IMG/VR virus record: IMGVR_UViG_3300029953_000003
Direction: 5' to 3' (one strand)
Length of the DNA: 30,533 nt
Source of the DNA: an uncultured virus (IMG/VR IMGVR_UViG_3300029953_000003)
Taxonomy: Duplodnaviria > Heunggongvirae > Uroviricota > Caudoviricetes
Part shown: piece by piece, positions 345 to 20,276 of the stretch
Layout: each line of letters opens with the position of its first letter
Position numbering within the stretch: position 1 is the first letter of the stretch
Notes under the pieces: generated by a model
The model's database searches: none
Told to the model about the DNA's origin: nothing
Seen by the model: only the letters and a program-made list of their open reading frames with translations
Translations under genes and position numbers: made by a program

Positions 345-1586
345 CTGGTCGTCGTCACCAACCACGCACAGATTGTTCGACTCCTCCGAAAGAGCGCGCG
401 CGAGCCGGTACTGCACCTCGTTGACGTCCTGAAACTCGTCGACCAGGACGTGTCGAAACATGCGGCGAATCGCGCGCCCTGCATCCGAGATGCTCGTCTT
501 CCCTCCCGCGGCGCCACCCGTCGGAGCCGGAGGCCGCTTCAAATCGCTGCGCTCGCTGGGGGTAGCAGGAGCCTGGAAAAGCCCGCCCGTCTGCCCAGGC
601 TTGAGAGCTTCGGCGCGCTTTGCAGTGGCGGCTGCGTAGCGTTCCCGTCGAACGTCAGGAGACGGTTGGACCACCTGCGCCACCAAGGACGACGGCTCGC
701 ACATCGCGAGCACCTTGAGCAGCAGGTCGTCGAAGTCAACGGCGTTGGCCTCCGCAAGCTTCTCCTGGTAGGCCACGTAGAGATCGCGAAAAGCAACGTC
801 GCCCCTGGAAAGGCATCCGTCAAAGATCTCGGGGCCTTTCCCTGACTGCTTGAGGCTAGAAATACGGGCGAGAGCGCGGTCCGGAGACACCGCGTCGCCA
901 AGATCGAGCTGCTTGGCGGCGCGGCGAAGAACGCGCTTTTGATCGGTGGTGTCGTAGATCGAAAAGCCTGGACGAAGACCCGCCGCCTGGTGAAAACGGC
1001 GCAAGAGCCTGGCGCAGATGGCGTGGAACGTACCGACCCAAAGATCCTTGGAGGTGGGCCCAAGAGCTTTGTCGAATCGGGCGCGCATCTCCGCGGCCGC
1101 CTTGTTCGTGAAGGTGACCGCGAGAATCGCGAACGTCGGCACCGCTTCGGCGATCACCAGGTGCGCCACGCGATGAACCAGGACGCGCGTCTTCCCGACA
1201 CCGGCGCCTGCGAGCATGAGGAAGGGCCCGTTGACATGCGCGACGGCTTCCCGCTGCGCATCGTTCAGGTCTGCGTCGCCCAGCGCCTCGGGGAGCTCAT
1301 CGAACTGCCCCGTGTAGTCGGTCTTCGAAAGCGGGAAGCTTGGTGTCTCCTCGGCCCCAACGCCCCCCGCCAGGGCCAGTGAATCTGGACCCTGCGACTC
1401 ACGATGTTCGGTCAAAAAAGAACTCGCGTCTGAATCGACATGCGCGACCGTGCCGCCAACGGCGTTGCTACCGATCGACTGCCCATCGATCGCACCGGCG
1501 ATCTCGGCTTGAAGCTCCGCCTCGATGGATTCCGCAAGAGCCAAACGGTCCTCGTCGGAGGCGTCATCATAGTCCTGGGCGTTCAT
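1..1586 (-). CDS. pcrA: PcrA/UvrD/Rep superfamily-1 DNA helicase, 5' part, intein-containing, truncated by the window edge
   Basis: Manual translation from ATG 1586 is open to the edge. It contains LNDAQREAV (Q motif), LAGAGVGKT (Walker A), AVTFTNKAAAEMRAR, VGTFHAIC, VDFDDLL, VLVDEFQD (Walker B) and VGDDDQ (motif III). Absent from the ORF track because the window holds no stop codon. Confidence 0.95.
   Translation of the reverse strand, partial: MNAQDYDDASDEDRLALAESIEAELQAEIAGAIDGQSIGSNAVGGTVAHVDSDASSFLTEHRESQGPDSLALAGGVGAEETPSFPLSKTDYTGQFDELPEALGDADLNDAQREAVAHVNGPFLMLAGAGVGKTRVLVHRVAHLVIAEAVPTFAILAVTFTNKAAAEMRARFDKALGPTSKDLWVGTFHAICARLLRRFHQAAGLRPGFSIYDTTDQKRVLRRAAKQLDLGDAVSPDRALARISSLKQSGKGPEIFDGCLSRGDVAFRDLYVAYQEKLAEANAVDFDDLLLKVLAMCEPSSLVAQVVQPSPDVRRERYAAATAKRAEALKPGQTGGLFQAPATPSERSDLKRPPAPTGGAAGGKTSISDAGRAIRRMFRHVLVDEFQDVNEVQYRLARALSEESNNLCVVGDDDQCHPPGVQIEVEDGTWVPVEALDPNADLVRGWSEATRTLSPVGRRFTIARRPFSGKVYTLVAGGCSVPITGNHKLVCMWASNPKIGTFEVSGEDLDTILRGRIAHGDLLVPIPDP
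1353..1410 (-). repeat. Dispersed double-hairpin repeat R1 (degenerate), in frame in the helicase N-terminal extension
   Basis: Minus strand CGAACATCGTGAGTCGCAGGGTCCAGATTCACTGGCCCTGGCGGGGGGCGTTGGGGCC, translated as EHRESQGPDSLALAGGVGA. Confidence 0.85.
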
Positions 1587-1673
1587 CTCAAGAATGACCT
1601 TCTGCCAGGTACGGTGAAGCGTCAAGCCTCAAGCGGGTGGAACGGCACGAGCTCGGGCCCAAGGCACGAACGC

Positions 1674-1706
1674 AAAAAAAGAGCCCACGGTTTCCCGAGG
1701 GGCTCT
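1674..1706 (-). terminator. Intrinsic terminator
   Basis: Minus strand AGAGCCCCTCGG-GAAA-CCGTGGGCTC followed by T7. Confidence 0.8.
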
Positions 1707-1825
1707 GGAAGAGCGTTACCGCACTCCGCGAGTGGCAGGGCAAAAGCTATCGCATCGCCGGCATCGTGTCAGGCTGAAGAATGCTTCAGCCCCCCCCCTC
1801 CCAGGCTCCGTGGCTGCCGGAATAG

Positions 1826-1858
1826 AAAAAGCCCCCGTATCCTGGAATACGGGGGCTT
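1826..1858 (-). terminator. Intrinsic terminator
   Basis: Minus strand GCCCCCGTAT-TCCAGG-ATACGGGGGC (10-bp stem) followed by TTTTTCT. Confidence 0.85.
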
Positions 1859-2071
1859 GGGCGACACCATCCGCGCCCGCCGAGCGGTCCCCGCTTTCGC
1901 GGCCTGCCTCGACGGACCACGACCCTCACAGAGCGGAGGATGGCCCTTCCCGCCTGAACAGCGGGACGTCGCGCTGGGCTTGCTGTCCCAACTATGCGCT
2001 CCCTTGGTTTGCTGTGCAAGCCCACGCGTGACGCATCGAAATCCAAGTAGCGGAGCCAGAAAGCGTCGGGC

Positions 2072-2101
2072 TTGACAGACAAGGGCGTCCGACCTTATCG
2101 T
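2072..2101 (+). promoter_or_regulatory. Sigma70-type promoter of the PTH2/tRNA-like cassette
   Basis: TTGACA (2072), 18 nt, TATCGT (2096), with an ATG 6 nt downstream at 2108. Confidence 0.7.
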
Positions 2102-2159
2102 TTGGGCATGAACCTCTCGTCCATACTCTGAAGCGGCTGCTCCGCCGCCCGCTGCTGTC

Positions 2160-2492
2160 GTGCCCGATGCAGCGCCTGCCCTCTGCCACTACGCGATCGT
2201 GCGGATGGACCTCCCTCTCGGGGTGCTCTGCGCGCAGCTTCTCCACGCCGGAGGCGAGTCCTCCGCCGGCAACCTTCCGCCTGGCACCACGGCCGTCGTC
2301 CTCGGCGTGCCGGATGAAGCCGCCCTCGAGATCGTCGCGAAGAAGCTGACGCTCGCAGGAACCGCTTTCGTGCGCATCGTGGAAGATGACGCGCCGTACT
2401 CGAACCAACTCATGGCCATCGGCTGCGTCCCCGGACGCAAGAAGGAGGTCGGCCGCGCGCTGCGTGGCCTCGAGCTGCTGCGAGGGGAGTGA
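2160..2492 (+). CDS. PTH2-family (peptidyl-tRNA hydrolase II / PTRHD1-like) protein; start uncertain
   Basis: HYAIVRMDL..GVLCAQLLHA, AVVLGVPDEAAL, MAIGCVPGRKKEV..LRGLELL match the PTH2 pattern (VRxDL..GxxxAQxxHA..VVL..AIGxxP..LxLL). Confidence 0.85.
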   Translation: MPDAAPALCHYAIVRMDLPLGVLCAQLLHAGGESSAGNLPPGTTAVVLGVPDEAALEIVAKKLTLAGTAFVRIVEDDAPYSNQLMAIGCVPGRKKEVGRALRGLELLRGE

Positions 2493-2500
2493 TTCAGTCA

Positions 2501-2573
2501 GGGCCGGTAGCTCAGAAGTAGAGCGCCGAGGCGCAAGCCTCGGAGGTTGCACGTTCAAGTCGTGCCCGGCCCA
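2501..2573 (+). tRNA. tRNA-like RNA 1 (pseudo-tRNA; anticodon arm is a 7-bp stem with a GCAA tetraloop)
   Basis: Acceptor GGGCCGG/CCGGCCC, D arm GCTC-AGAAGTA-GAGC, CCGAGGC-GCAA-GCCTCGG, T arm GCACG-TTCAAGT-CGTGC. No encoded CCA. Confidence 0.85.
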
Positions 2574-2577
2574 CGAA

Positions 2578-2650
2578 GGGCCTTAGCTCAGTTGGTAGAG
2601 CAGGATCTCGTATAATTTCCTGGTCGCGGGTTCGAGTCCCGCAGGGCCCA
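2578..2650 (+). tRNA. tRNA-like RNA 2 (irregular anticodon arm, no assignable anticodon)
   Basis: Acceptor GGGCCTT/AGGGCCC, D arm GCTC-AGTTGGTA-GAGC, T arm GCGGG-TTCGAGT-CCCGC. Anticodon region AGGA-TCTCGTATAATT-TCCT. One nucleotide is missing between the acceptor and D stems. Confidence 0.8.
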
Positions 2651-2654
2651 CCCC

Positions 2655-2724
2655 GCGCTTTTTCAGTGGTTGATTGGACCGGAGGTATACCGGGACAAGG
2701 ATGGTTCGATCCCCTCAAAGCGCG
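2655..2724 (+). tRNA. tRNA-like RNA 3 (degenerate)
   Basis: Acceptor GCGCTTT/AAAGCGC, D-like CAGT-GGTTG-ATTG, CCGG-AGGTATA-CCGG (loop lacks U33), T arm GATGG-TTCGATC-CCCTC with one mismatch. Confidence 0.6.
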
Positions 2725-2776
2725 CCGCCAAAAGCTCCGGTGAAAAGTAGAAGCCGCAGAGCCAGCTCGGCGTAGA

Positions 2777-3397
2777 CTATCGCTTTTTCTTGACGGAACG
2801 CATGGTCGCCTCGACCCAGTCGGCAAGAATCAGAGGGACAGTGCCCGAGACAAGAACACGACCTCCAGCGCCTCGGGAAGCGTAGCCAGCCGAGCGAGTC
2901 TTTTCGATCGCCCTTCGCGCGATCTCATCGAGACCGCGCTCGTGACCTACACTCCAGTCTGCGCGGCTCCACGGAACGAACGTCGCGTCCCCATGCCAAG
3001 GTGTCGTGACGATCACGGAGTAACCATGAACGCGTGGAGCCGAATCCCTTCGCGAAGAAGGATGGCTCGTCGGATCGTGATCGAGCAACGCCTCTCCGAT
3101 CGCTGCTTGAACGTGGCCCGAGTATCGCAGCCCAGCTACGCCAGGTCCAGGCTCTGGGGTGGGCAAGACACGCCCCTTGGCGTTGTAATGACGGATTGCC
3201 CTATCTTTCAAGAGACGGCCCATGACAAGGGGCCCCTCCAGCGTTGCGCTCGTCTCGTAGGCCACGCACGCTTCCACAGCCTCCTCGACCGTATGAGGAA
3301 CCTCCTCCCAGCTCGTGAGTGCAGCCCTGTCGTTCTTGTTCATCTTGGTCGAGCCCACGCGCGCGAGCTTGACTTTCCATAGCTGTTGGTCGGCCAT
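2777..3397 (-). CDS. Hypothetical protein
   Basis: 206-aa ORF. ATG 3397 is preceded by CTGACA-17 nt-TAGTCT-6 nt. Confidence 0.75.
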   Translation of the reverse strand: MADQQLWKVKLARVGSTKMNKNDRAALTSWEEVPHTVEEAVEACVAYETSATLEGPLVMGRLLKDRAIRHYNAKGRVLPTPEPGPGVAGLRYSGHVQAAIGEALLDHDPTSHPSSRRDSAPRVHGYSVIVTTPWHGDATFVPWSRADWSVGHERGLDEIARRAIEKTRSAGYASRGAGGRVLVSGTVPLILADWVEATMRSVKKKR

Positions 3398-3428
3398 GCG
3401 CAAAGACTACCCGAAAACGCTCGGGCTG

Positions 3429-4091: not shown

Positions 4092-4116
4092 GAATGTTCT
4101 ACGAACGAGCGCGCCA

Positions 4117-4536
4117 TCAACTTTTGGCCGTCATCCTCATGACAAAAGAAAGCTTTCCGCGCACAAGATCAAGCTCCTTCGTCGCGAGCTCGATCTCCTT
4201 CGCCAGGCTCTCCGCGCGTGATTCGGCATTATCGGCACGATTCCGCTCAATCTCGAGCTCTTTTAGCGCTGCCACGGCGATCGATGCGGCCACCGGCGGA
4301 TCGTGGGAAGCGATCGCTAAAGTCTCTTCCGCGTCGGTGTGCTTGGCGAGCGCCTTCGCGCGGATGCCAAGAGCAGAGGCGAAAAGAGCAATCACTCCCG
4401 CCGTGACCTGAAGCTCCCCAGACAGGTAGAGCGAGATCACGTGGCCTTCAATGCCCGATAGGCGAGAGAGATCGCTCTGCCCCATGTCGGCGTCCCCCAT
4501 GAGTCGGCCGAGACGCCCACGAAACGTCTCCTTCAC
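4117..4536 (-). CDS. XRE-family HTH regulator with C-terminal coiled coil
   Basis: MGQSDLSRLSGIEGHVISLYLSG..IALFASALGI, followed by an E/A/K-rich helix. Confidence 0.75.
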   Translation of the reverse strand: MKETFRGRLGRLMGDADMGQSDLSRLSGIEGHVISLYLSGELQVTAGVIALFASALGIRAKALAKHTDAEETLAIASHDPPVAASIAVAALKELEIERNRADNAESRAESLAKEIELATKELDLVRGKLSFVMRMTAKS

Positions 4537-7137: not shown

Positions 7138-7479
7138 TCAGGACATCTTGAGCCTGCGGCTCGCCTCTTCAGCCTTGGGGCGGCTCGACTTGATGAGCGC
7201 GTACAAGTTGAGCGAATCAAAACCAGGCCAGTCGCCACCACGAAGACAGATTTCGGCCTTCTCGTGACAATTTGCTTTGCAAAGCGCAATTCCGTTCTCA
7301 TGGACGTAGCCACCGTTGGGCATCAGCTCGCGGGGCGTGATGTGGTGCGCGTCGAGAAGAGCCTCAGCGGAGCCCGCCGAAGCGACAACCCGGCACCCAG
7401 GGCCCTGGCAACGGTACCGCGCTCGAACGAAAACGGCGTCGCGGAAAAGTGCTCGGGTCTTCTTCTGCTTCTCGCTCAT
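7138..7479 (-). CDS. HNH endonuclease
   Basis: FRDAVFVRARYRCQGPGC..LDAHHITPR..NGIALCKANCHEKAE. SD-like GAAGG before ATG 7479. Confidence 0.88.
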   Translation of the reverse strand: MSEKQKKTRALFRDAVFVRARYRCQGPGCRVVASAGSAEALLDAHHITPRELMPNGGYVHENGIALCKANCHEKAEICLRGGDWPGFDSLNLYALIKSSRPKAEEASRRLKMS

Positions 7480-7498
7480 GACCGCCTTCTCATTCCTC

Positions 7499-7566
7499 GC
7501 GAACATCGTGAGCCGCGGGGTCCAGGGCCCAGGCCCTGGCGCGGGGGTCGGGGGCACGCAGCCTCC
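7499..7566 (+). repeat. Repeat R2 (intergenic, upstream of the HNH gene)
   Basis: GCGAACATCGTGAGCCGCGGGGTCCAGGGCCCAGGCCCTGGCGCGGGGGTCGGGGGCACGCAGCCTCC. Confidence 0.95.
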
Positions 7567-7576
7567 ATGCCTTTCC

Positions 7577-8272
7577 TCAGTACAGGGCGCGCGCGATGGC
7601 CTCACGCGCAGCATCGCGGTCGCGGCGTGCGGCCTCCTCGTCAAACGCTGGCGCTAGCGCAGAAGGCTGGGCGCCAGGGGCCGCCTCGGAAGCGCGAACG
7701 GCGATCGTCACGGCGGAAACGCCTGGCCGCTGTCGGCGCGCGAAGGCGAGGTAGGTCTCGCCGGAGGAGCTGGCCGCGCTCGAGGTGAGGCGCTCGCCGT
7801 CAAGCGGATCGAGCTCGTCTTCGTCGTCGTCGCCGGCGGCGTTGAAGTGTCCGCGCACGAGCCGACGCGCCACCACAGGCGCGGCGAGCTCAAGCGGCTC
7901 GTGCTTGGCACGCTCCTCGGCCGCCGCGCGGGCAACGCGCTCGTGCTCGAGCCTGTCGTCGACAGGGTCGTGCCCAAGCCGCCGCGCGCACACGTAGCTC
8001 CGCGCCAGGAGCCGTTCGGACGCCGACGCCGCGTCGCCACCCTGGAACCGCAGCTCCTGGAGGAGCGCCACCACCCGCTCCTGCGTCTCCGCCAGGTCGG
8101 GCCACGTCACAGCCCGCGCGAATACCTGTCGCCTCGCCTCGAGCAAGCCCACGAGCTCACCCCGCAGAGACGCTTGGGGGCTGCTCGCCCCCAAACCCCC
8201 CGCCAGGGACTCGTCCCTGGACCCGGAGCTCACGATGTTCGCCGGGAGAGGGCGTGGCGCTTGCTCGTTCAC
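7577..8272 (-). CDS. Hypothetical protein with repeat R3 in its N-terminus
   Basis: 231-aa ORF with a GTGA overlap with the upstream gene. Confidence 0.7.
   Translation of the reverse strand: MNEQAPRPLPANIVSSGSRDESLAGGLGASSPQASLRGELVGLLEARRQVFARAVTWPDLAETQERVVALLQELRFQGGDAASASERLLARSYVCARRLGHDPVDDRLEHERVARAAAEERAKHEPLELAAPVVARRLVRGHFNAAGDDDEDELDPLDGERLTSSAASSSGETYLAFARRQRPGVSAVTIAVRASEAAPGAQPSALAPAFDEEAARRDRDAAREAIARALY
8174..8242 (-). repeat. Repeat R3 (in frame)
   Basis: Minus strand GCGAACATCGTGAGCTCCGGGTCCAGGGACGAGTCCCTGGCGGGGGGTTTGGGGGCGAGCAGCCCCCAA, translated as ANIVSSGSRDESLAGGLGASSPQ. Confidence 0.95.
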
Positions 8273-8484: not shown

Positions 8485-8685
8485 TGCCTGCTACCGTTCC
8501 TGTTAAAGGAGCCACCGGAGCCCTCGCTCGCCGGTACCGCACGCCTGCGAGGCGTGGCGTAGCTGCCCGAACGAGACGAGGGACGGATCGTGCGACGAAG
8601 CCCTGCGCAATCGCCCTGTTACGGCACAGGAAGGCCAGGCTCGAGAGCACGAGCCAGCGAAGCGCGCAGGTCTACGCGCAGGCTA

Positions 8686-8886
8686 TCACAGCGACGTTGG
8701 CTCGAGGCGACGTTTCATCTCGGCCGCCACGTCAGGCGGCATCACGAGCGTGCCCGTGAGCGACAGATCGCTGCGCCCAGAAGACACTCGAGCGTGAACG
8801 TGATCGCCGATCGGTGAGATCTCCACGAGGAAGACGATCGGCGGCTCTGACGGCGGACACGGAAGCGTGTCGCGTGACGAGCTCAC
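8686..8886 (-). CDS. Small hypothetical protein
   Basis: GTG 8886 overlaps the TGA of the DUF3307 gene; 66 aa. Confidence 0.55.
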   Translation of the reverse strand: MSSSRDTLPCPPSEPPIVFLVEISPIGDHVHARVSSGRSDLSLTGTLVMPPDVAAEMKRRLEPTSL

Positions 8887-9500
8887 GGCCACCACGAAAG
8901 CGCGGCCGCGTTGCAGCAAAGATGGATCGTGTTGTCCGTGATGATCAGGAGCCATGTCGCAAGCCATGCCGGCCGATCCTGATGGTAGCCGGTCACCTTG
9001 CACTCCTCCCAGGAGTGCCACCACTTCGTCACGGGAACGACGCCCAAGAGGCCGCCCTTGGTGACTGGAGCGATGACCATGTAACGAGCAGCCTGAGGAA
9101 GATTGCCTCCGACCTCAAGGATAAAAAGATCGCGGACAGCGCGGCCTTCGACAAAATCACCAGCACGCAAGTCGCCGCCGAGCTTGTCGCCAGCACGAAA
9201 GAAGATCTGGTCCTCCGGACGCCCCAACGAGAACGGAGGCGCCAGAAAGTTCTTGATCCAGCAGACGTAGCGCGCGAGACGCCACCGATCGACCACGAAG
9301 TGTGTCCCGGCGATGAAGACCAGAGCCTGCCAGGAATGCGCAAGCAGAAGAAACGGCAGGGTGTACGTCAGCGCGTGCGCCAGCGCAGCGAGGCTCTTCT
9401 TGGTCTTCTCCGCAGCCATCCAATCGGACTGCAAGAAGTAATCGCCGAAGAGATGGGCGATGAGCTGGACGAACACAAACGTCGGCACGCAAAAATTCAC
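8883..9500 (-). CDS. DUF3307-family membrane protein with an internal insertion
   Basis: LIAHLFGDYFLQSDWMAAEK, AHALTY, GTHFVVDRWRL, IITDNTIH. Confidence 0.85.
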   Translation of the reverse strand: MNFCVPTFVFVQLIAHLFGDYFLQSDWMAAEKTKKSLAALAHALTYTLPFLLLAHSWQALVFIAGTHFVVDRWRLARYVCWIKNFLAPPFSLGRPEDQIFFRAGDKLGGDLRAGDFVEGRAVRDLFILEVGGNLPQAARYMVIAPVTKGGLLGVVPVTKWWHSWEECKVTGYHQDRPAWLATWLLIITDNTIHLCCNAAALSWWP

Positions 9501-10540: not shown

Positions 10541-10827
10541 CCTCTTGAAACGCTCAAGAGCGCCGCTCGTTTGGCCGCATCGAGACCCACATGCTCAGAC
10601 GTCACGCCTGGCGCAAAAAGCTTCACCCGAGGCTTGGCGCCTGGCTCCGAAGGAGGGACAACGATCCGGCAGTTTCCTCGCGTGTAGGACACCCATCCGT
10701 GCTCGTCCTCCCGCCTCGTCCACATCGGCTTTTTCTTGAACACGCGAGGCTCCTCTCTCCTGAAGCGAACATCGTGAGCCGCGGGTCCAGGGCTAAGGCC
10801 CTGGCGGGCTGGCGATGTATTCTTCAT
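10534..10827 (-). CDS. Hypothetical protein with repeat R4 in its N-terminus
   Basis: 97-aa ORF with GAGG upstream. A later start (MWTRRED) is possible. Confidence 0.65.
   Translation of the reverse strand: MKNTSPARQGLSPGPAAHDVRFRREEPRVFKKKPMWTRREDEHGWVSYTRGNCRIVVPPSEPGAKPRVKLFAPGVTSEHVGLDAAKRAALLSVSRGW
10765..10808 (+). repeat. Repeat R4 (truncated, first hairpin only)
   Basis: GCGAACATCGTGAGCCGCGGGTCCAGGGCTAAGGCCCTGGCGGG. Confidence 0.9.
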
Positions 10828-10834
10828 TTTAGCC

Positions 10835-11524: not shown

Positions 11525-11590
11525 GCGAACAGCGTAAGCTGCGGGGTCCAGGGCCGTGGCCCTGGCAGGGTGCAGGGGCAGAGCCCCTGC
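11525..11590 (+). repeat. Repeat R5 (intergenic)
   Basis: GCGAACAGCGTAAGCTGCGGGGTCCAGGGCCGTGGCCCTGGCAGGGTGCAGGGGCAGAGCCCCTGC. Confidence 0.95.
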
Positions 11591-11601
11591 GGGATCCCCC
11601 T

Positions 11602-13113: not shown

Positions 13114-13218
13114 TTACTTGATCAAGCCCCTGCACGACTTCAGATGATAGTCGCTCTTTCCGTTGAGTTTTTTGCCACATTTTGGACACGTCCAGTACAA
13201 ACCTTTTGACTTGCTCAT
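13114..13218 (-). CDS. 34-aa C2HC zinc-finger micro-protein (not in the ORF track)
   Basis: MSKSKGLYWTCPKCGKKLNGKSDYHLKSCRGLIK*, with an ATGA overlap with the ASCH gene stop. Confidence 0.65.
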   Translation of the reverse strand: MSKSKGLYWTCPKCGKKLNGKSDYHLKSCRGLIK

Positions 13219-14492
13219 ACAACCAACCTATCACCCGACGGCCCTCGCATCCGCATCAGGATCTTCTCGCGATCGATGTAGACGACGTTCTGGGGCCCGC
13301 GCGTAAGCGTCGTCGCGTCCGGCGCATCGTAGAGGTACGCCGCGCCGATCTCCCACACGTAGAGCTCCGTGTCGAACGGGTAAAGCGCCTCCGCCTCATC
13401 CTCCGGCGTCATCGGCCTGCACCCGGCGATCTGAACGATTCCGAGAATCGCTCCCCTGGGCTCGCGGTGCGCCTCCGCGACCTTGCCCAGGCGCTTGAAC
13501 GCCGTCGCGCTCCCGGCGCCGCCCAGCGTCGCGTAGATCGCCATCCACTGGTCGTCCCACGAGGACCCCTCCTCCCCCAGCCTGGGAAACGCCCACTTTC
13601 GCGTCTCGAGCCTCTTCGGCCCCGGTGCCCCGTACACGGACCCGTCCCCGAACAGAAGCCCCGCGTACGGCTGCCACAGCGCGATGCAGCGGACCCGCGC
13701 CGGGAGCCTGGACGACCCCTCTGGGGTCCAAAGCCTGGCGAGAGCGGCAAGAGCTTGGGGACTTCCAGCCCCCAACACCCCCTGGCCAGGACCGTAGCCC
13801 TGGACCCCGCAGCTCACTTCGTTCGCCACGGCGTCTTTCGCATCCCGCATCGCGTCGATCCTGCAAACGATCTCGTCCAGATGCTCTGCCGGAGGGTCGA
13901 GTGCGTCGTCAAAAGCCTGTACGACCTTGGCGCACATCTCGTCATCGGTCAGGATGCGCGAAGCGCCTTCCTCGCGAACATCGTGAACCGCGGGGTCCAG
14001 GGCCCTGGCCCTGGCAGGGTTGCCGGGGGCGGAGCCCCTGGCGCGACTCTTCTTCGGCTTCGGCGGCACGATGGGCATGGGCACTGGCGCGGGCATGGAG
14101 ACGACCGCGAGCACCCCACGGAGGCGAGGGACGAGGGTGTGATGGGCCTTGCGGCGAAAGTCAAGGCGAACGGCGATGGCGGCAACGGCGCGTGACTCTT
14201 CAAAATAGGAAGAAAGGCGGTCGGCGCCATCGACCGTGATAGCGGTCGCGTGCGCCTGATAGCGAAGAAGGTGATCCTCGCAAAGCGCCAGAGGATTCGG
14301 CACAGGCCAGGCAGGGCCGACCCAGTCAGCCCCAGACGCGGCCGCGAGCTCGAGCCACAGCGGATCGACCCCCTCGTAGACCTCGTTGGGGCATCGGAGC
14401 GTGTAGGTGCGTCCCGCGCGCTCGTTGACCTCGACCAGCGGGACCCCATGATCGTCGCGCAGGTACTCCGTGCAACGGCTGTCGTAACTCAC
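13215..14492 (-). CDS. Protein with C-terminal ASCH (PUA-like) domain, containing repeats R6 and R7
   Basis: RCIALWQPYAGLLF..KRLETRKW..MAIYA..PRGAILGIVQI. GTG 14492 overlaps the upstream TGA. Confidence 0.8.
   Translation of the reverse strand: MSYDSRCTEYLRDDHGVPLVEVNERAGRTYTLRCPNEVYEGVDPLWLELAAASGADWVGPAWPVPNPLALCEDHLLRYQAHATAITVDGADRLSSYFEESRAVAAIAVRLDFRRKAHHTLVPRLRGVLAVVSMPAPVPMPIVPPKPKKSRARGSAPGNPARARALDPAVHDVREEGASRILTDDEMCAKVVQAFDDALDPPAEHLDEIVCRIDAMRDAKDAVANEVSCGVQGYGPGQGVLGAGSPQALAALARLWTPEGSSRLPARVRCIALWQPYAGLLFGDGSVYGAPGPKRLETRKWAFPRLGEEGSSWDDQWMAIYATLGGAGSATAFKRLGKVAEAHREPRGAILGIVQIAGCRPMTPEDEAEALYPFDTELYVWEIGAAYLYDAPDATTLTRGPQNVVYIDREKILMRMRGPSGDRLVV
13755..13826 (-). repeat. Repeat R6 (in frame)
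   Basis: Minus strand GCGAACGAAGTGAGCTGCGGGGTCCAGGGCTACGGTCCTGGCCAGGGGGTGTTGGGGGCTGGAAGTCCCCAA. Confidence 0.92.
13974..14041 (+). repeat. Repeat R7 (in frame, inverted partner of R6)
   Basis: GCGAACATCGTGAACCGCGGGGTCCAGGGCCCTGGCCCTGGCAGGGTTGCCGGGGGCGGAGCCCCTGG. Confidence 0.95.
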
Positions 14493-15196
14493 GTGGCCCT
14501 TACAAGCGAACGGAGCGTCTTTCCATCGAGCAGAACCATTCCCTTCGACGCCGCGTATTCGCTTGTAAGTGCCCACGCCTCGACATGAACGCCACGAAGG
14601 CGAGCGCGGTCTGCTGCTGATTCAACGCGCTCAAGGATCGCCGCGGGAGTCACCTGGAGAACCGCAGCAACTAGAAATAGCTGCTCGACAGAGAGTCCAG
14701 AAAAACCGCTCTCTGCGCGGCTCCAGCTCGCGCCAGAAAGACCCATACTATGGGCAACATGCGCTTGGCTGAGACCGAGATATCGGCGCAAGTAAACGAG
14801 CACAACGCCAAGAAGCGCCGCGTAAGACGTCGCCGGGCGAAGCGCATGAGCAGAAGCTTGGCGTTGGCGTGTCATTCGCCCAGATCGCTCATCGTGAGCC
14901 ACCGCGGAGCGACGTTCCGCCTCGCCCTCCGGCGACGCCTCGTGCTCGAGGAGGATCCCCGCGGCAAGATCGTCCTCCGGACGGTGCGTGGCCTTCCCCA
15001 TAGACCTCGCGAGCGCGCCGAACACGATCCGCCGAGCGTCTCCGCTCTCCGTGACCCGCGAGCCACCTTCGCGCTCCGCGCGCTCGATCAGCTCCGCCGC
15101 CGTCTCCGAGCCGCGCGACGCGTCGGCCCTGGAGGCTTTGCGGTCTGACCCCTCGTTCCTTCCCGCGCAGCGCTTCGGATCGAACATGCGGCTCAT
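14489..15196 (-). CDS. Protein with C-terminal XRE HTH domain
   Basis: LRRYLGLSQAHVAHSMGLSGASWSRAESG..LSVEQLFLVAAVL. TTGACG lies 35 nt before ATG 15196. Confidence 0.8.
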   Translation of the reverse strand: MSRMFDPKRCAGRNEGSDRKASRADASRGSETAAELIERAEREGGSRVTESGDARRIVFGALARSMGKATHRPEDDLAAGILLEHEASPEGEAERRSAVAHDERSGRMTRQRQASAHALRPATSYAALLGVVLVYLRRYLGLSQAHVAHSMGLSGASWSRAESGFSGLSVEQLFLVAAVLQVTPAAILERVESAADRARLRGVHVEAWALTSEYAASKGMVLLDGKTLRSLVRAT

Positions 15197-16482: not shown

Positions 16483-16655
16483 CGTCACCATCGTCCTCGT
16501 CCCCACTCTCGCAGGCGCACGAAATGGACGTCGATCCCTCCGCGGCACGTCGGCGCTCCTGAAGCATCACCAGGCGAAACCGGCGCGGCTGTTGACATGC
16601 GGTTCTACCTTAGGACGACAGAACGAAACGTCAAGCGCGAAGCGTCAAGGTTGAC

Positions 16656-17912
16656 TTACTCGAGGAGGCGCAGGCGAAGCTTCGCGAGCGAGGTCTCCTG
16701 GCGCTGGCGGACGCGCTCGCGCGTCACGCCAAGCTTGTCGCCAAGCTCCTGGAGCGTGTGCTCTTCGTCGTCGATCCCGAAACGACCGCGCAAGATCCTC
16801 GCGTCATAGGGTGAGAGCGTTCCAAGGAGACGCCGCGACTCCCTCGCCATGTCCTGCTCGAGCTTGCGATCAAAAGGAGACGGAGCCTCGTCGCGCAGAG
16901 AGCTCAAAAACGTGTCGCCGCTTCCTCCGTCGTCGAAGTCGCCCGTCTTGACGTCGAGGGAAAGGGTCCCGCTGTTCCGGTGAAGATCGAGCGTCTTCAG
17001 CCTTGCTAGCGAGAGCCCCGTCTTCGTCTCGAGCTCCTCGAGCGTCGGCTCGCGGCCGTTCTGCGCCAAGAACACCTGCGTCGCGCGGTATACGTGGACG
17101 CGCGCCTCGAGAATGTGAACAGGGAGACGGACGACGCGGCCCTTGTCCGCCAGCGATCGCGTGATCGTGTGACGGATCCACCACGCTCCGTACGTCGAAA
17201 AGCGATACCCACGACTCGCGTCGAACTGATCGACCCCCTTCATCAGGCCGATGTTCCCTTCCTGGATCATGTCGAGCAGCGGCATGACTCCGCGCCGGTA
17301 GCCGCGGGCAACCGAGACCACGAGGCGCAGGTTCGCCTGCACAAAGCGATTCTTCGCGATCGCATGAGCCCGGAACGCTGACTCGACGCCACGAAAAGCC
17401 GAGCAAGCCCGATCCCCGCCCAGGCTTTCCGCCACGATCTCGCGCGCGCGCGAGACCCAAAGCCGGTCCGCGTCCTGAAGACGGATCATGGCCGCCAGCG
17501 CACGCACCCCCTTGGGGTACGCCTCCGCCTTGACCTTCCCTGCTTTGCCGATCGTCTTGAGCAAAGACTCCGACTGCATCCGCGCCCGAGAAAGCGGATC
17601 CCGATCCGAGGGATCGGCCTCGCTCTCCAGCTTTCCCAGATGCTCGTGCAGCGTCGTCAAAATCAGGCCGGCCGACGGGCCATGGGCGAGAAGCGCGGCC
17701 CACCTGTCGACCTCACATCGCTCGATCTCGTGGGCTGCCTCGGTCTCCTGTTCCGGCGACATCACCGGGAACTTCGACATCGCGCGAAAATATTCCGCAA
17801 GGGCAGGATCGATCGTGTCCACCGCCTTCCCTCTCGACTTCGACGAGGCACGAGGCAGAACACGAGCGCTTGACGCCGAGGCGCGAGCAGGTTGAAACAC
17901 TGGAGACTCCAT
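16656..17912 (-). CDS. Sigma70-family (RpoD/RpoS-like) RNA polymerase sigma factor
   Basis: ANLRLVVSVARGY, DMIQEGNIGLMKGVDQFD..GYRFSTYGAWWIR, RVVRLPVH, GREPT, TLQELGDKLGVTRERVRQ. Confidence 0.95.
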   Translation of the reverse strand: MESPVFQPARASASSARVLPRASSKSRGKAVDTIDPALAEYFRAMSKFPVMSPEQETEAAHEIERCEVDRWAALLAHGPSAGLILTTLHEHLGKLESEADPSDRDPLSRARMQSESLLKTIGKAGKVKAEAYPKGVRALAAMIRLQDADRLWVSRAREIVAESLGGDRACSAFRGVESAFRAHAIAKNRFVQANLRLVVSVARGYRRGVMPLLDMIQEGNIGLMKGVDQFDASRGYRFSTYGAWWIRHTITRSLADKGRVVRLPVHILEARVHVYRATQVFLAQNGREPTLEELETKTGLSLARLKTLDLHRNSGTLSLDVKTGDFDDGGSGDTFLSSLRDEAPSPFDRKLEQDMARESRRLLGTLSPYDARILRGRFGIDDEEHTLQELGDKLGVTRERVRQRQETSLAKLRLRLLE

Positions 17913-18000
17913 CTGGAAGAGAGCAATCTTCGGTGAAGAGAGAACAACCGTCAAGAAAGAAGCTTCGGTTCAATGGCGCTTGAGTCGTTGTACAATCACG

Positions 18001-18029
18001 AGAGTGATCTGTTACAGCGTGGGCGTCAA
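18001..18029 (-). promoter_or_regulatory. Putative promoter upstream of the sigma factor (a second TTGACG lies at 17954)
   Basis: TTGACG-17 nt-CACTCT, the same -10 hexamer as at 29408-29413. Confidence 0.5.
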
Positions 18030-18071
18030 CGTGGACGATCCGTGCCGAAGCCCGAGTAGCCGCCGTCGCTC

Positions 18072-20198
18072 TTACCCTTCTGCGCTCTTCAAAATAATCG
18101 CGGCCAGCTTCTCGAGCTTTCCGGCTGCCTCTTCGTCCACCTCGTCAACGCGAGGCGCGCGGTTTTTCTCCCCGCCCTTCCCGTCGCTCTCCCAGACCCG
18201 ACGTCCCGCCGACTGCCGGTCGAGCTCAGCAAGGTGCTCTGCCGTCGCGACCCGCTGCACGATCTCCTCCGCCGAGAGCTCGCGGCTGAGGCCCGCCCCA
18301 GCCGTGCGCGTCGTTCCGTCGCTTCGAACCTCATGCCGCTGCCCCGGCGCCCACACCGTTACCGCATCCAGGGGCGTGATCTTCCACGCCCCCACCCGGT
18401 AGTTCCGCGCGACGCTCGGGGGCTCCCCCTCGCCAGAGCCTAGGCATTGGACCCCGCGGCTCACGATGTCCGCTTCTTCGGCTCCGGCACTTCTCAAATC
18501 GAACACACGATCGCCGGTCACGTCAGTATCAGAAACGCCATCCTCCACCGCTTCTCTGGTGCGAACATCGTGAGCCGCGGGGTCCAGGGCCATGGCCCTG
18601 GCGGGGGTGCCGGGGGCGGAGCCCCTGGCGCTCTCCGGATTCTCGGCAGGGGGCCCGCCATGTGCAGCCGCCCAGCGGATTGCGGCAAGCGCGCCTTCTT
18701 CCGAGTGAAAAGCGCCGCCGTCGGTGTGAATGTAGAGCGGGATGGCGCCCTCGAGCTCGGCGCCACGGAGGAGGAGCCCGATCCATGCCTGGACGGCACC
18801 GATCACCTGGATGCCGGCTGGCAAGAGGGCGTTATCGTGCTGTCGCTCGGCGACAGGGAGCTGGTAGATCGAGTGGCCGAGGCTGGTCGCGCCGTCCAGA
18901 TCGTCCTCGGAAATGTCCTCGGAGCAGACCAGGCGACTCTCGCGTGGGCCCATCAGAAAAGCGCCGACCGCGCGCACCGAGAGCGCCTTCACGAGCTCGC
19001 TCTCCGCGGTCGTATCGCACTCCGAGCGCCAGCGACGTAGCGCCTCGCCGAAGCGCGCAAAAAGCGGATCCGGCGCGAAGCGGTAGACGGTCTGCACGCG
19101 GATGACCACACACCCGACCGCCTCGGCTGCCTTGAGCTGGAGCCCGGTCCAGGTTCCCCAGACGACCCCGGTCGGATAGCACGACGTCCCGGCTTCTGAC
19201 GGCTCGTACCGGAGCGGACCGTAGAGGAGCCCGGGAACCCGCACCAGCGCCACCACCACCGTGCACGGGTCGAGGTACTGGCTCTCCGTCCCCTCCCCCA
19301 GAAAGGCCACCCCAATCGGCACCGTCTCGAGCGCCGTCGGATACGCGCTCGAAAGATCCACGTCCGCCGGCGTCCCGTAGAAGGTCCGCACCGCCTGGTG
19401 GCCCCCCGGACCCGCAGGCGCGCGGTTCGTCTCGCTCACCGCGAGAGACCTCTGCGCCTTGCTGCCGCACGCAAGGCACGCGGCGCCGGCGGCTCCCTGA
19501 ACGCCGCAACGACTGCAAACTCGAATCTCTGCGCCAGGCCCCTGCGCAGTGCCCTTCCGGAGGACAACGTCGCCGGGGTGGCAGTAGAGCTCCTGGCGAC
19601 CGCCGCCCACGGCGCCTGCACGGCGAAGAGAGACCTCGAGCTGGGGGTCGACGACGAGTTCGTGGTCAAGGAACGTGCGGAAGAGCTCGAGGGCCGTGCC
19701 AGTAAGCGACGAGCCCAGAGTGACCGACGGGAAGCGCCGCAGGATCATGTCGTCGATCGCGTCGATCTCGGCAAGCGTCGCAGCGCACTGCTCCTCGGCC
19801 GTGAGGCCCGGCGACAAGCTGACGATGCCTGCCGCGCTCCGCCCGTGCCAGTAGACGTGCCCGGGAACGTCTTCGTCGTCGACCTCCCCCTTGGCGTCCC
19901 AAACACGGAGCGTCGAGATCACGCCGTGTCGCGCCGTCGCGCCTACCCGGTAGCCTTCCTTGAGGAGCGACGGCACCAGGCCCCGCCAGTCACTAGGCGA
20001 CGATGGTACAAGCCACACCTGCCCGAAGGGCTTGTACGTCGCCGCGTCCGTCAGGTAGTTGAGCAGAGCCGCCCGGTGCGCAAACCGCAGCGCACCGTCC
20101 GCATGCACCAGCGTCGAGCCGTCCTCGTCCACCGCCCCCAGGTACACCGCCGCGCGCCGCACCGGAACCGCCGCCTTGATAGGATCTTTCGGCTTCAT
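18072..20198 (-). CDS. Divergent family-B DNA polymerase-like protein
   Basis: GGGRQELY, DVDLSSAYP (motif A), YPTGVVWGTWT, VKALSVRAVGAF (altered motif B), LYIHTDG (motif C). Contains a CxxC..CxxC insert and repeats R8/R9. Confidence 0.75.
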   Translation of the reverse strand: MKPKDPIKAAVPVRRAAVYLGAVDEDGSTLVHADGALRFAHRAALLNYLTDAATYKPFGQVWLVPSSPSDWRGLVPSLLKEGYRVGATARHGVISTLRVWDAKGEVDDEDVPGHVYWHGRSAAGIVSLSPGLTAEEQCAATLAEIDAIDDMILRRFPSVTLGSSLTGTALELFRTFLDHELVVDPQLEVSLRRAGAVGGGRQELYCHPGDVVLRKGTAQGPGAEIRVCSRCGVQGAAGAACLACGSKAQRSLAVSETNRAPAGPGGHQAVRTFYGTPADVDLSSAYPTALETVPIGVAFLGEGTESQYLDPCTVVVALVRVPGLLYGPLRYEPSEAGTSCYPTGVVWGTWTGLQLKAAEAVGCVVIRVQTVYRFAPDPLFARFGEALRRWRSECDTTAESELVKALSVRAVGAFLMGPRESRLVCSEDISEDDLDGATSLGHSIYQLPVAERQHDNALLPAGIQVIGAVQAWIGLLLRGAELEGAIPLYIHTDGGAFHSEEGALAAIRWAAAHGGPPAENPESARGSAPGTPARAMALDPAAHDVRTREAVEDGVSDTDVTGDRVFDLRSAGAEEADIVSRGVQCLGSGEGEPPSVARNYRVGAWKITPLDAVTVWAPGQRHEVRSDGTTRTAGAGLSRELSAEEIVQRVATAEHLAELDRQSAGRRVWESDGKGGEKNRAPRVDEVDEEAAGKLEKLAAIILKSAEG
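18417..18473 (-). repeat. Repeat R8 (in frame, degenerate)
   Basis: Minus strand GCGGACATCGTGAGCCGCGGGGTCCAATGCCTAGGCTCTGGCGAGGGGGAGCCCCCG. Confidence 0.88.
18561..18628 (+). repeat. Repeat R9 (in frame, inverted partner of R8)
   Basis: GCGAACATCGTGAGCCGCGGGGTCCAGGGCCATGGCCCTGGCGGGGGTGCCGGGGGCGGAGCCCCTGG. Confidence 0.95.
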
Positions 20199-20207
20199 GA
20201 AATCCGC

Positions 20208-20276
20208 TTGGGGGCTGCGCGCCCCCAACCCCCCTCGCCAGGGCCACGGCCCTGGGCCCCACAGCTCACTTCGTTC
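20208..20276 (-). repeat. Repeat R10 (intergenic, upstream of the polymerase)
   Basis: Minus strand GAACGAAGTGAGCTGTGGGGCCCAGGGCCGTGGCCCTGGCGAGGGGGGTTGGGGGCGCGCAGCCCCCAA. Confidence 0.9.

What the first reader, a model, noticed from the sequence alone, without database searches (positions are those of the whole stretch)
1353..20276. Dispersed double-hairpin repeat family (10 copies), mostly inside reading frames
Seen: ten copies of GCGAAC-(ATC/GAA/AGC)-GTGAGC-NNN-GGGGT-[CCAGGGC loop GCCCTGG]-..GGGT-[NNGGGGC loop GCCCCNN] at 1353, 7499, 8174, 10765, 11525, 13755, 13974, 18417, 18561 and 20208. Stems show compensatory changes: CCAGGGAC/GTCCCTGG in R3, and TTGGGGGC/GCCCCCAA versus GCAGGGGC/GCCCCTGC in hairpin 2. 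Loops vary freely. Seven copies sit inside ORFs without breaking them (helicase, polymerase twice, ASCH protein twice, two hypotheticals). They are read on both strands and in different frames (ANIVS.., EHRES.., ..AAHDVR), so selection appears to act on nucleic-acid structure and not on the peptide. Known parallels are REP sequences moved by HUH (RAYT) transposases and Rickettsia palindromic elements inserted in frame. Inference: this is either a phage-borne palindromic mobile element or a ssDNA signal for priming or recombination restart needed at intervals. No transposase is visible, and no copy was seen after 20.3 kb.
Basis: partly seen in the sequence, partly recalled or inferred. Interest (0 to 1): 0.85.

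Follow-up and report, generated by a model that had tools for sequence, protein, structure and literature searches.

The report
Double-hairpin selfish repeats inside genes
A short GC-rich DNA repeat that folds into two hairpins has spread through a large phage- or plasmid-like genome from peat, sitting between genes and, in frame, inside replication genes, much as REP/RPE palindromic elements do in bacterial chromosomes.

Summary
A covariance model finds exactly the ten copies in the window (E 6e-21 to 2e-9) and none after 20.3 kb. It finds 17 more sites in near-identical and related peat-metagenome contigs.

The unit is about 73-77 nt:
- a weak CT-rich tract;
- the head GCGAAC-NNN-GTGAGC;
- a sequence-invariant hairpin 1;
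- a covarying hairpin 2.

Five window copies (R1, R6-R9), not seven, are truly inside genes. R2, R4, R5 and R10 are intergenic, and R3 is intergenic or 5'-terminal.

Across all 27 sites, 13 are in frame inside genes, often as head-to-head doublets. Homologues give "empty sites":
- DnaE: 7 of 7 close relatives and E. coli Pol III alpha lack both doublets.
- The phi29-like PolB: 5 of 7 homologues lack the doublet.
- One two-domain homologue of ORF B lacks it.

Best reading: a REP/BIME/RPE-like non-autonomous palindromic element in a >150 kb mobile genome with Polyangia-like replication genes. No transposase, target duplication or empty-site allele was found, so mobility is inferred.

Intragenic REP dimers in DNA replication and repair genes are already described in bacteria. 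This is therefore a new variant, not a new kind.

The parts
1335..1411 (-). R1, a sense copy with a 5-nt-loop hairpin 2, somewhat degenerate. It lies inside the N-terminal extension of the PcrA/UvrD helicase ORF and is read as TEHRESQGPDSLALAGGVGAEETP.
   Evidence: Model hit of 70.2 bits. The coding frame is continuous on both sides. There is no in-frame ATG, GTG or TTG between R1 and the conserved helicase domain. The 120 of 120 listed homologues cover only 45-62% of the first 200 residues, that is, they lack this N-terminal part.
7499..7573 (+). R2, an intergenic copy antisense to the genes. It lies between the stop of gene 7577-8272(-) and the ATG (7480) of an HNH-endonuclease-like gene.
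   Evidence: 84.6 bits. Six-frame view. HNH PHROG hits fall at residues 48-136 of ORF 7138-7644.
8169..8242 (-). R3, a sense copy that begins 26 nt after the stop of the upstream gene. It is either intergenic or the first codons of gene 7577-8272(-).
   Evidence: 86.3 bits. The upstream ORF ends at 8269-8271, and GTG/TTG starts with an SD-like GGGGTGAG follow R3.
10765..10825 (+). R4, a truncated intergenic copy antisense to the genes, with head and hairpin 1 only. Similarity ends near 10812.
   Evidence: 46.1 bits. Alignment and six-frame view.
11525..11595 (+). R5, an intergenic antisense copy whose tail lies 6 nt from the stop (11602) of the upstream gene. Hairpin 2 has a 3-nt loop.
   Evidence: 78.4 bits.
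13750..14046 (.). Doublet R7(+) / 147-bp spacer / R6(-), arranged head to head and in frame in the inter-domain linker of ORF 13215-14576(-).
   Evidence: R7 scores 83.6 and R6 79.5 bits. One coding frame runs through all three segments. Homologue P0010 (364 aa) has both domains without this segment, and many homologues carry only one domain. The unit folds as one long hairpin, z = -5.7.
18416..18633 (.). Doublet R9(+) / 87-bp spacer / R8(-), arranged head to head and in frame in a phi29-like family-B DNA polymerase gene, 18072-20198(-).
   Evidence: R9 scores 85.4 and R8 41.5 bits. The frame is continuous. Five of 7 homologues have nothing at this site and 2 of 7 have another, shorter linker. 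In the model, residues 521-596 have pLDDT below 50 between well-folded elements. The fold matches phi29 DNA polymerase at E 1.8e-9.
20203..20278 (-). R10, an intergenic sense copy between the stop of gene 20289-21125(-) and the ATG (20198) of the polymerase gene.
   Evidence: 83.5 bits; translation.

Best explanation
This is a family of short non-autonomous palindromic repeats of the REP/BIME/RPE type. It has multiplied within one lineage of large (>150 kb by contig overlap) GC-rich mobile genomes from peat, whose replication genes resemble those of Polyangia myxobacteria.

Each unit has four parts:
- a weak CT-rich tract;
- a 15-nt head, GCGAAC-NNN-GTGAGC;
- hairpin 1, conserved in sequence (GGGGT-CCAGGGCC-loop-GGCCCTGG);
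- hairpin 2, which keeps its pairing while its sequence changes.

Units occur singly or as head-to-head inverted doublets with unrelated spacers of 43-147 bp.

Shown:
- Copies lie in intergenic gaps, usually within 0-26 nt of the upstream stop codon.
- Copies also lie in frame inside genes, at loops or linkers where homologues are uninterrupted.
- Five of the six reading frames of the unit lack stop codons, and every in-gene copy keeps the host frame. They are therefore translated into short, probably disordered inserts and not removed.

Inferred:
- Copies arose by insertion (copy-and-paste, or recombination-mediated spread) of folded single-stranded DNA, by an enzyme not yet identified.
- Only in-frame, stop-free insertions in tolerant loops survived selection.
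- Intergenic copies may secondarily act as 3' mRNA hairpins, as REPs do.
For: Reality and copy number:
- Ten copies in the window.
- 94 model hits in 40 loci collapse to 60 contig-unique hits and 29 distinct sequences. These make 27 distinct sites (one search list).

Structure (28 distinct rows):
- 95.0% of cells are paired, against 60.3% and 57.7% when the partner is slid by -1 or +1.
- 25 cells carry changes on both sides, against 8.3 in shuffles (0 of 500 reach it).
- 4 of 9 hairpin-2 pairs show double changes, for example CG 11 and UA 10.

Insertion into genes:
- DnaE on L016 (Pfam PHP, DNA_pol3_alpha, finger, HHH_6) aligns to E. coli Pol III alpha 4jom_A in three blocks. The gaps are 96 aa against 11 aa, and 61 aa against 5 aa, exactly at the two doublets.
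- 7 of 7 homologues at 72-79% identity lack both doublets.
- PolB-like gene: 5 of 7 homologues are empty at the site, and the insert is predicted disordered.
- ORF B: P0010 spans the site without the insert.
- R1: no start codon lies downstream of it.

Frame:
- 12 copies have the same open frame on both sides, and A45370 does too by translation. That is 13 of 27 in genes.

Both strands are read, in several frames.

Parallels in print (PMC3733652; sections 6 and 15 and further passages read):
- REP singletons and inverted dimers 20-100 bp apart, and heterodimers.
- Position close to the 3' ends of upstream ORFs.
- Intragenic REP dimers in UvrD, DnaE and uvrA.
- CGTC families without a linked transposase.
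Against: - No transposase of any Pfam family was found in 35 + 135 window frames or in 36 ORFs of related loci. Most of the >150 kb genome was not available.
- No target-site duplication was seen in the flanks.
- No presence/absence difference at any copy was found between strain-level contigs that are 99.7-100% identical.
- No clean empty-site joint appeared in contigs of four peat runs. All empty-site evidence is therefore at the protein level, against diverged homologues.
- Orientation is not random with respect to hairpin-2 type. By an automatic loop-length rule, 3-nt-loop copies are antisense 11 to sense 4, and 5-nt-loop copies are sense 6 to antisense 2 (Fisher p = 0.04). My earlier hand count, on a partly different subset, gave p = 0.005.
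- All 6 in-gene antisense copies use one of three open frames.
- A CT-rich tract before the head reads as a Shine-Dalgarno sequence on the other strand.

The last three points hint at function or a directional mechanism, beyond pure selfish spread.
Confidence: 0.68

Rival explanations
1. This is a functional 'gene punctuation' RNA element. The antisense-oriented unit acts as a 3' mRNA stabiliser or processing hairpin just after stop codons. The sense-oriented unit acts as a 5' element. The CT tract supplies an RBS on the complementary strand. In-gene copies would be by-products.
For: - Intergenic copies sit 0-26 nt from upstream stops.
- Hairpin-2 type correlates with orientation relative to the genes.
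- Some genes are bracketed by a sense copy 5' and an antisense copy 3'. DnaE lies between A47593 and A44224, which share the rare GTC...GAC form of hairpin 2. Gene 7577-8160 lies between R3 and R2.
- The CT tract at -8 to -3 is GGAGRG on the other strand, and A32739 lies 16 nt upstream of an ATG.
Against: - 13 of 27 copies lie inside genes, including a conserved DnaE where homologues are continuous. A boundary signal has no role there.
- Sense copies carry the CT tract too, where it cannot serve as an RBS.
- None of the 10 copies has a T-run, whereas the genome does hold a canonical terminator-like site at 1858-1829.
- No Rfam family matches.
Confidence: 0.15
2. This is a single-stranded-DNA signal for priming, replication restart or recombination, needed at intervals.
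For: - The hairpins are conserved, with a sequence-invariant hairpin 1 and head.
- The G.T wobble in 10 of 28 copies is tolerated only on the element's forward strand.
- The genome encodes its own DnaE, a protein-primed-type PolB and helicases.
Against: - Copies lie on both strands in about equal numbers, 5 and 5 in the window.
- They are clustered, not regularly spaced: none in 20.3-30.5 kb.
- Doublets have variable spacers.
- A signal would not need to sit inside polymerase reading frames.
- No test here speaks for it.
Confidence: 0.05
3. The copies are sites of a site-specific recombinase (shufflon- or invertase-like) that inverts or shuffles the segments between inverted copies.
For: - Inverted copies lie inside reading frames that stay open in both orientations.
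- One opposite-strand joint, 13973/18549, in one run (X13, side 58 nt) links the head flanks of R7 and R9.
Against: - Inverting the spacers or the gene segments of DnaE or PolB would destroy conserved genes.
- No recombinase was found in the window.
- Contigs from several samples are collinear.
- The single joint comes from short contigs at 90% likeness through a repeat.
Confidence: 0.03
4. The doublets are intervening sequences, removed from the mRNA or bypassed by the ribosome.
For: - Doublets fold into long hairpins that bring the flanks together.
- An RNA-repair-associated domain (cREC_REC) and a weak RNA-ligase PHROG hit occur in the window.
Against: - All 4 doublets and all in-gene singles keep the frame and lack stops. 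That is expected only if they are translated.
- There are no ribozyme or intron matches in Rfam.
Confidence: 0.03

Closest known systems
REP/BIME elements, including intragenic REP dimers (GTAG- and CGTC-tagged families; Di Nocera et al. 2013, PMC3733652; sections 6 and 15 and passages read)
   Same: - Short GC-rich palindromes in many copies.
- Singletons and inverted dimers with 20-100 bp spacers, and heterodimers.
[quoted passage not shown]
- A minority to half inside ORFs, notably UvrD, DnaE and other DNA synthesis and repair genes, encoding 20-30 aa or more.
- The CGTC families have no linked transposase.
   Different: - The unit is 73-77 nt, with two different hairpins plus a 15-nt non-palindromic head.
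- There is no GTAG tag, and a 3' CGTC occurs in only about 4 of 27 copies.
- About half of the sites are intragenic.
- The carrier is a large phage- or plasmid-like genome, not a chromosome.
- The family is absent from 185,579 species genomes at the stringency of the pattern used.
Rickettsia palindromic elements (RPE). Features as summarised in PMC3733652; the original papers are recalled and were not read.
   Same: Palindromic repeats inserted in frame into genes that stay open, absent from orthologues, and translated on either strand.
   Different: The host and sequence are unrelated (sequence similarity was not tested, as no reference sequence was at hand). RPE-1 is longer. Here inverted doublets are the commonest in-gene form (8 of 13 in-gene copies).
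REPINs moved by RAYT (TnpA_REP) HUH transposases, and IS200/IS605-derived palindromic elements
   Same: Inverted doublets form one long hairpin. There is a conserved 5' motif next to a hairpin. The hairpins are kept by compensatory change, as expected if a protein reads folded ssDNA.
   Different: No Y1/HUH gene was found in the sequence held. Spacers are longer and unrelated. The outer ends of the doublet are its most variable part.
Mitochondrial double-hairpin elements and GC clusters, and the 'coding palindromes' of Nematomorpha (search listing; abstract of PMC6649704 read)
   Same: Small GC-rich two-hairpin mobile elements are found between and within genes, and inverted repeats are tolerated inside translated genes.
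   Different: These are organellar and unrelated in sequence. In Nematomorpha both arms encode conserved protein regions, whereas here the arms are extra loops.
MITEs
   Same: The size range is 70-300 bp, they are non-coding, and the doublets have inverted arms.
   Different: Single units have no terminal inverted repeats. No target-site duplication was seen. The terminal parts of the doublets are the least conserved.

Membership tests
REP (GTAG/CGTC-tagged) | A single imperfect palindrome of 20-40 bp | tested here: not met
   The unit is 73-77 nt, with two distinct hairpins and a head. Each hairpin with its GGGG(T) prefix is REP-sized, so the unit could be a fixed tandem of two REP-like modules.
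REP (GTAG/CGTC-tagged) | A terminal GTAG or CGTC tetranucleotide tag | tested here: not met
   GTAG is seen only in the variable head triplet of A46397. A 3' GCGTC follows hairpin 2 in R3, R8, A46397 and B61684 only.
REP (GTAG/CGTC-tagged) | Singletons plus inverted dimers 20-100 bp apart; heterodimers common | tested here: met
   There are four head-to-head doublets with spacers of 43, 87, 88 and 147 bp. In 3 of 4 the arms differ in hairpin-2 form, and the fourth has a truncated arm.
REP (GTAG/CGTC-tagged) | Mostly intergenic and near the 3' ends of upstream ORFs; some intragenic in DNA synthesis and repair genes | tested here: met
   Fourteen of 27 sites are intergenic, 0-26 nt from stops. 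Thirteen of 27 are in genes: PcrA/UvrD, DnaE, PolB, helicase-bearing giant ORFs and ORF B.
REPIN/RAYT system | A linked RAYT (Y1 HUH, PF01797) gene in the same genome | tested here: inconclusive
   There is no Pfam transposase hit in 170 window frames or in 36 ORFs of related loci.
Rickettsia palindromic elements | In-frame insertion in ORFs, absent from orthologues | tested here: met
Rickettsia palindromic elements | Sequence membership in RPE-1 to RPE-8 | not tested
   No RPE reference sequence was available from a tool.
MITE | Terminal inverted repeats with a target-site duplication | tested here: not met
   No duplication appears in 40-nt flanks of 29 copies. Single units lack terminal inverted repeats.
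Intrinsic terminator | A GC-rich hairpin followed by a T-run | tested here: not met
   None of the 10 copies is among the 7 terminator-like sites.
Any Rfam RNA family | A covariance-model match | tested here: not met
   Only two tRNAs and one weak YrlA hit at E up to 1.

The most novel reading that the evidence does not exclude
The head-to-head doublet (antisense arm, spacer, sense arm) is the moving unit of an undescribed 'GGGGT-prefixed' double-hairpin REP superfamily. This superfamily lives in phage- and plasmid-like genomes and not in chromosomes; its hairpin core also occurs in two IMG/VR contigs and two Acidibrevibacterium plasmids. It would be moved by an enzyme other than a RAYT, with a fixed polarity relative to transcription or replication. 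Its two arms would double as a 3' mRNA hairpin and a 5' RBS-bearing element. Insertion could then split, fuse or decorate genes, even DnaE, without killing them.
Probability: 0.12. Interest if true: 0.8.

Novelty: new variant of a known kind. Interest (0 to 1): 0.55.

Why it matters
Selfish palindromic repeats that survive inside reading frames are known from a few bacterial chromosomes and organelles. Here they saturate the replication module of a large uncultivated mobile genome, at about one per 3.5 kb of the sequence held, with half in genes and two doublets in its DnaE.

This gives a compact natural system for three questions:
- how such elements move;
- why DNA-replication and repair proteins so often carry them;
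- how much disordered insertion essential enzymes tolerate.

Practically, the copies break metagenome assemblies: contigs start and end in them. They also create false long ORFs and odd low-complexity segments in predicted proteins. A covariance model for them improves annotation of this lineage.

Tried and rejected
Searches that found nothing, or nothing relevant:
- Own genome: not held.
- Megablast of 25 kb against phages: no match.
- Head plus hairpin-1 pattern in viral contigs: 0.
- The same pattern in genome contigs: 1 hit in an Opitutus MAG, with head and one arm only. About one hit is expected by chance for 21 fixed bases (my arithmetic), and the model finds nothing better than E 0.38 in that genome.
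- Loci L012, L030 and L036, from other sites, are likewise weak (16-19 bits).
- Rfam: no family.
- PolB-like relatives in viral contigs: none.
- blastn of one copy: no match in phages. In plasmids, only the hairpin core matched, in 4 records.
- PHROGs on 34 ORFs of related loci: no convincing structural gene; the one 'portal' hit lies on a NUDIX domain.
- Handles for the metagenome contigs are not searchable.
- Earlier findings of this scan: none.

Tests of mechanism with negative or unclear results:
- Transposase search: none.
- Target-site duplications: none seen.
- Spacer similarity among the four doublets: no better than shuffles.
- Terminator scan: no copy flagged.
- Single-unit folding energies are only modestly better than shuffles (z -1.0 to -2.7), so thermodynamics alone does not carry the structure claim.
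- Hairpin scan of the window for other REP-like units: uninformative.

Sequencing runs:
- No RNA holder is listed.
- Laying Logan contigs of 4 peat DNA runs gave no clean joint that skips a copy or a doublet. Joints with 21-29-nt sides run through repeat k-mers. Loose ends at 13828 and 18561 are contigs of other copies or other organisms.

Other:
- The DnaE C-terminal domain was looked for downstream of the truncation and not found in the sequence held.
- Papers: searches for MITEs in phage genomes inserted in frame (0 papers), REPIN/RAYT with bacteriophage (5 papers, none on phage-borne families by title or abstract), myxobacteria with MITEs (1 unrelated) and REP with phage genomes (2 unrelated). 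I therefore found no description of such a family in a phage-like genome in the library searched.

Full report
**1. Observation**

Taken alone it is barely above chance (mean 7.4; 1 of 100 shuffles reaches 17). Extraction and alignment show a shared unit of about 73-77 nt:
- the head, GCGAAC-NNN-GTGAGC;
- a short linker ending in GGGGT;
- hairpin 1, CCAGGGCC-loop-GGCCCTGG;
- a G-rich linker;
- hairpin 2.

A covariance model was built from eight full copies and run with filters off. It finds exactly the ten copies (41-86 bits, E 6e-21 to 2e-9). The next full-length hit scores 12 bits, and nothing lies beyond 20.3 kb. R4 lacks hairpin 2, and R8 has a shortened one.

**2. Where else it occurs**

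| Search | Result |
|---|---|
| Whole genome of the window | none held |
| Megablast against phages | no match |
| Head plus hairpin-1 pattern, IMG/VR | 0 |
| Same pattern, 185,579 species genomes | 1 chance-level hit |
| Same pattern, metagenome contigs | 39 loci, nearly all one family |

- The window is 99.98% identical to the first 17 kb of a 57-kb contig.
- The model finds 94 hits in the 40 loci. These are 60 contig-unique hits and 29 distinct sequences, which together with the window make 27 distinct sites (list).
- A 77-kb contig overlaps both a 91-kb and the 57-kb contig of another sample (coordinates). If these are collinear, the genome exceeds 150 kb. This is an inference.
- Public runs that hold the stretch are all labelled peat metagenome.
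- Contigs begin and end inside copies, as repeats cause.

**3. Structure**

On 28 distinct rows aligned to the model:
- 95.0% of cells are standard pairs, against 60.3% and 57.7% when the partner is slid by -1 or +1.
- 25 cells carry changes on both sides, against 8.3 in shuffles (0 of 500).
- The covariation score is 0.176 against 0.101 (0 of 500).

Hairpin 1 hardly varies, so it says little either way. Four of the nine pairs of hairpin 2 show double changes (CG 11 and UA 10; CG 15, UA 4, AU 2, GC 1).

Cautions: the alignment is fitted to the model, and subfamilies share descent, so several of these cells are inherited events. Single units fold only modestly better than shuffles (z -1.0 to -2.7). 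A doublet folds as one long hairpin (z -5.7).

**4. Genes**

Nearly all genes are on the minus strand. They include:
- a PcrA/UvrD helicase;
- several DNA methyltransferases;
- HTH proteins;
- an HNH-like gene;
- an alpha/beta hydrolase;
- three sigma-70-family genes;
- two tRNA genes on the plus strand.

A codon-usage score trained on confident genes shows one continuous coding frame across R1, across R7-spacer-R6 and across R9-spacer-R8.

By contrast:
- R2, R4, R5 and R10 lie between a stop codon and the next start.
- R3 lies 26 nt after a stop and before good GTG/TTG starts.
- R2 in particular lies upstream of the ATG of the HNH-like gene.

So five window copies, not seven, are inside genes.

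**5. Empty sites**

*(a) ORF 18072-20198(-).*
- It has no Pfam hit, but its model matches phi29 DNA polymerase (top nine hits, E 1.8e-9 to 1.9e-7, TM 0.28-0.36 on a mean pLDDT of 63.5). It is therefore a protein-primed-type family-B polymerase.
- Seven homologues were found. In the alignment, five run straight across the site, and two (56% and 48% identical) have other, shorter linkers.
- Model residues 521-596, that is, R9-spacer-R8, have pLDDT below 50 between well-folded elements.

*(b) ORF 13215-14576(-).*
- One homologue (P0010, 364 aa) has both the N- and C-terminal domains without R7-spacer-R6.
- Many others carry only one domain.

*(c) DnaE in a related contig (L016).*
- The gene is a DnaE by Pfam (PHP, DNA_pol3_alpha, finger, HHH_6) and holds two doublets in frame.
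- It aligns to E. coli Pol III alpha (4jom_A) in three blocks. The unaligned stretches are 96 against 11 residues, and 61 against 5 residues, at the doublets.
- All 7 of 7 aligned homologues at 72-79% identity lack both. Those that carry a source name are from Sorangium, Polyangium and Chondromyces.

*(d) R1.*
- The 120 listed PcrA/UvrD homologues lack the N-terminal extension that holds it.
- No in-frame ATG, GTG or TTG lies between R1 and the conserved domain, so R1 must be translated.

*(e) Singles in giant ORFs.*
- Singles A9920, A11261, A13484 and B61684 lie in frame in ORFs longer than 2,000 codons that are open at both ends of their loci.
- No homologue test was made for these.

In all, 13 of 27 sites are in genes.

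**6. Reading frames**

- Sense copies are read as ANIVS... (R6, R8, B61684) or ...EHRE... (R1, A9920, A45370, A46397). The third sense frame has TGA in GTGAGC.
- All six in-gene antisense copies are read as ...ALDPAAHDVR, although the other two antisense frames are also open. By my arithmetic, the chance that five more copies fall in the frame of the first is (1/3)^5, if the copies are independent.
- Every in-gene copy and doublet keeps the frame and has no stop. This argues that they are translated, not spliced or bypassed.

**7. Arrangement**

- Four doublets are all head to head, with spacers of 43, 87, 88 and 147 bp that are unrelated to each other.
- Intergenic copies lie 0-26 nt from the upstream stop. 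A44224 abuts the DnaE stop; A58349 and A69742 lie 5-6 nt from stops.
- Hairpin 2 comes in a 3-nt-loop form with a G.T wobble and in a 5-nt-loop form.
- By an automatic loop rule, 3-nt-loop copies are antisense 11 to sense 4, and 5-nt-loop copies are sense 6 to antisense 2 (p = 0.04). My hand classification on a subset gave p = 0.005. This is suggestive only.
- Positions -8 to -3 before the head are pyrimidine-rich in both orientations (for example, -4: C 18, T 8 of 27). On the other strand this reads GGAGRG.
- No target-site duplication is visible.
- None of the copies has a T-run.

**8. Mobility and its agent**

- No transposase family was found in 170 window frames or in 36 ORFs of related loci.
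- Strain-level contigs (99.7-100% identical) show no gain or loss of a copy.
- Contigs of four peat runs give no clean excision joint.

Mobility therefore rests on protein-level empty sites, on the two orientations, and on the high similarity of dispersed copies.

**9. Wider family**

The hairpin core without the head occurs elsewhere:
- in two plasmids of Acidibrevibacterium fodinaquatile (40.7 bits);
- in two IMG/VR contigs.

One of those contigs holds five model hits in 10.9 kb, with tandem 'GGGGTCC plus hairpin' units. The near-identity of about 50 nt of core suggests a broader, uncatalogued class of GGGGT-prefixed hairpin repeats on mobile genomes.

**10. Comparison with what is known**

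Di Nocera et al. 2013 (PMC3733652; sections 6 and 15 and further passages read) describe:
- REP singletons and inverted dimers 20-100 bp apart, and heterodimers;
- location next to the 3' ends of upstream ORFs;
- intragenic REPs, more than half of them dimers, in UvrD, DnaE/DnaE2, uvrA/B, recBCD and Pol I genes;
- no transposase linked to the CGTC families.

They equate some REPs with Rickettsia RPEs.

The present family behaves the same way but fails the defining tests of those families. It is not a single 20-40-bp palindrome, and it has no GTAG or CGTC tag. It is also not a MITE, because it lacks terminal inverted repeats and a target-site duplication. Mitochondrial double-hairpin elements (listing) and the Nematomorpha coding palindromes (abstract) are functional analogues only. 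I found no paper on such a family in a phage-like genome.

**11. Verdict**

This is a real, structured, REP/RPE-like repeat family: a new variant of a known kind. Its mobility is inferred and its mobilising enzyme is unknown. There are hints, from orientation against hairpin type, the single antisense frame and the RBS-like tract, that it is more than passive selfish DNA. Whether the carrier is a phage is open.

Noticed in passing
window 3-344 (-): The PcrA/UvrD ORF leaves the helicase consensus right after VVGDDDQ and continues with a Cys-initiated stretch (CHPPGVQIEVEDG...) that runs off the window. It looks like an intein (motif recalled, not tested). A helicase on L011 has a weak PT-HINT hit of 26.8 bits, below the cut-off of 27.7.
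   Followed up: no
L016 1805-1807 and copy A44224 (L016 1732-1804): The DnaE of the related contig stops more than 110 residues earlier than its 72-79% identical homologues and lacks their OB-fold domain (PF01336). The stop codon abuts a repeat copy. The missing part was not found in the sequence held.
   Followed up: partly
window 8600-9244: A 645-bp segment is absent from contig Ga0302267_10001899, and a contig of run X20 skips 8596-9245. This strain-level indel is not at a repeat copy.
   Followed up: partly
window about 19390-19545 (-), residues about 218-270 of the PolB-like protein: An extra Cys-rich segment (CSRCG...CLACG) is absent from all 7 homologues and is predicted with low confidence. 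It may be a zinc-ribbon insertion.
   Followed up: no
window 2501-2652 (+): Two adjacent tRNA genes lie on the strand opposite to nearly all protein genes. One is tRNA-Thr(CGT); ARAGORN cannot assign an anticodon to the other.
   Followed up: no
window 16656-17954, 21772-22857, 29470-30273 (-): Three sigma-70-family genes lie within 14 kb. The middle one has only a weak region-4 hit. Together with at least four DNA methyltransferase genes, they fall in the part of the window that is free of repeats.
   Followed up: no
L004/L005 and L014: ORFs of more than 2,000 codons are open at both ends of their 6-kb loci, with a high coding score. One carries an SNF2-type helicase C-terminal piece and the other a primase-like piece. 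These are giant multi-domain proteins decorated with the repeat.
   Followed up: partly
G002 (IMG/VR contig, loci L049-L054) and L041 (plasmid NZ_CP029178.1, 28472-28546): The same hairpin-1/hairpin-2 core occurs with other 5' heads. G002 also has 90-150-nt repeats in both orientations, made of tandem GGGGTCC-hairpin units.
   Followed up: partly
L027 3202 / L038 2824: Homology between the 77-kb and 57-kb contigs ends 131 bp beyond copy A69742. Of three strain-level breakpoints seen, this is the only one that lies near a copy.
   Followed up: no
window 23465-24001 (-): A gene carries a cREC_REC (cyclic-phosphate processing receiver) domain, E 3.7e-7.
   Followed up: no
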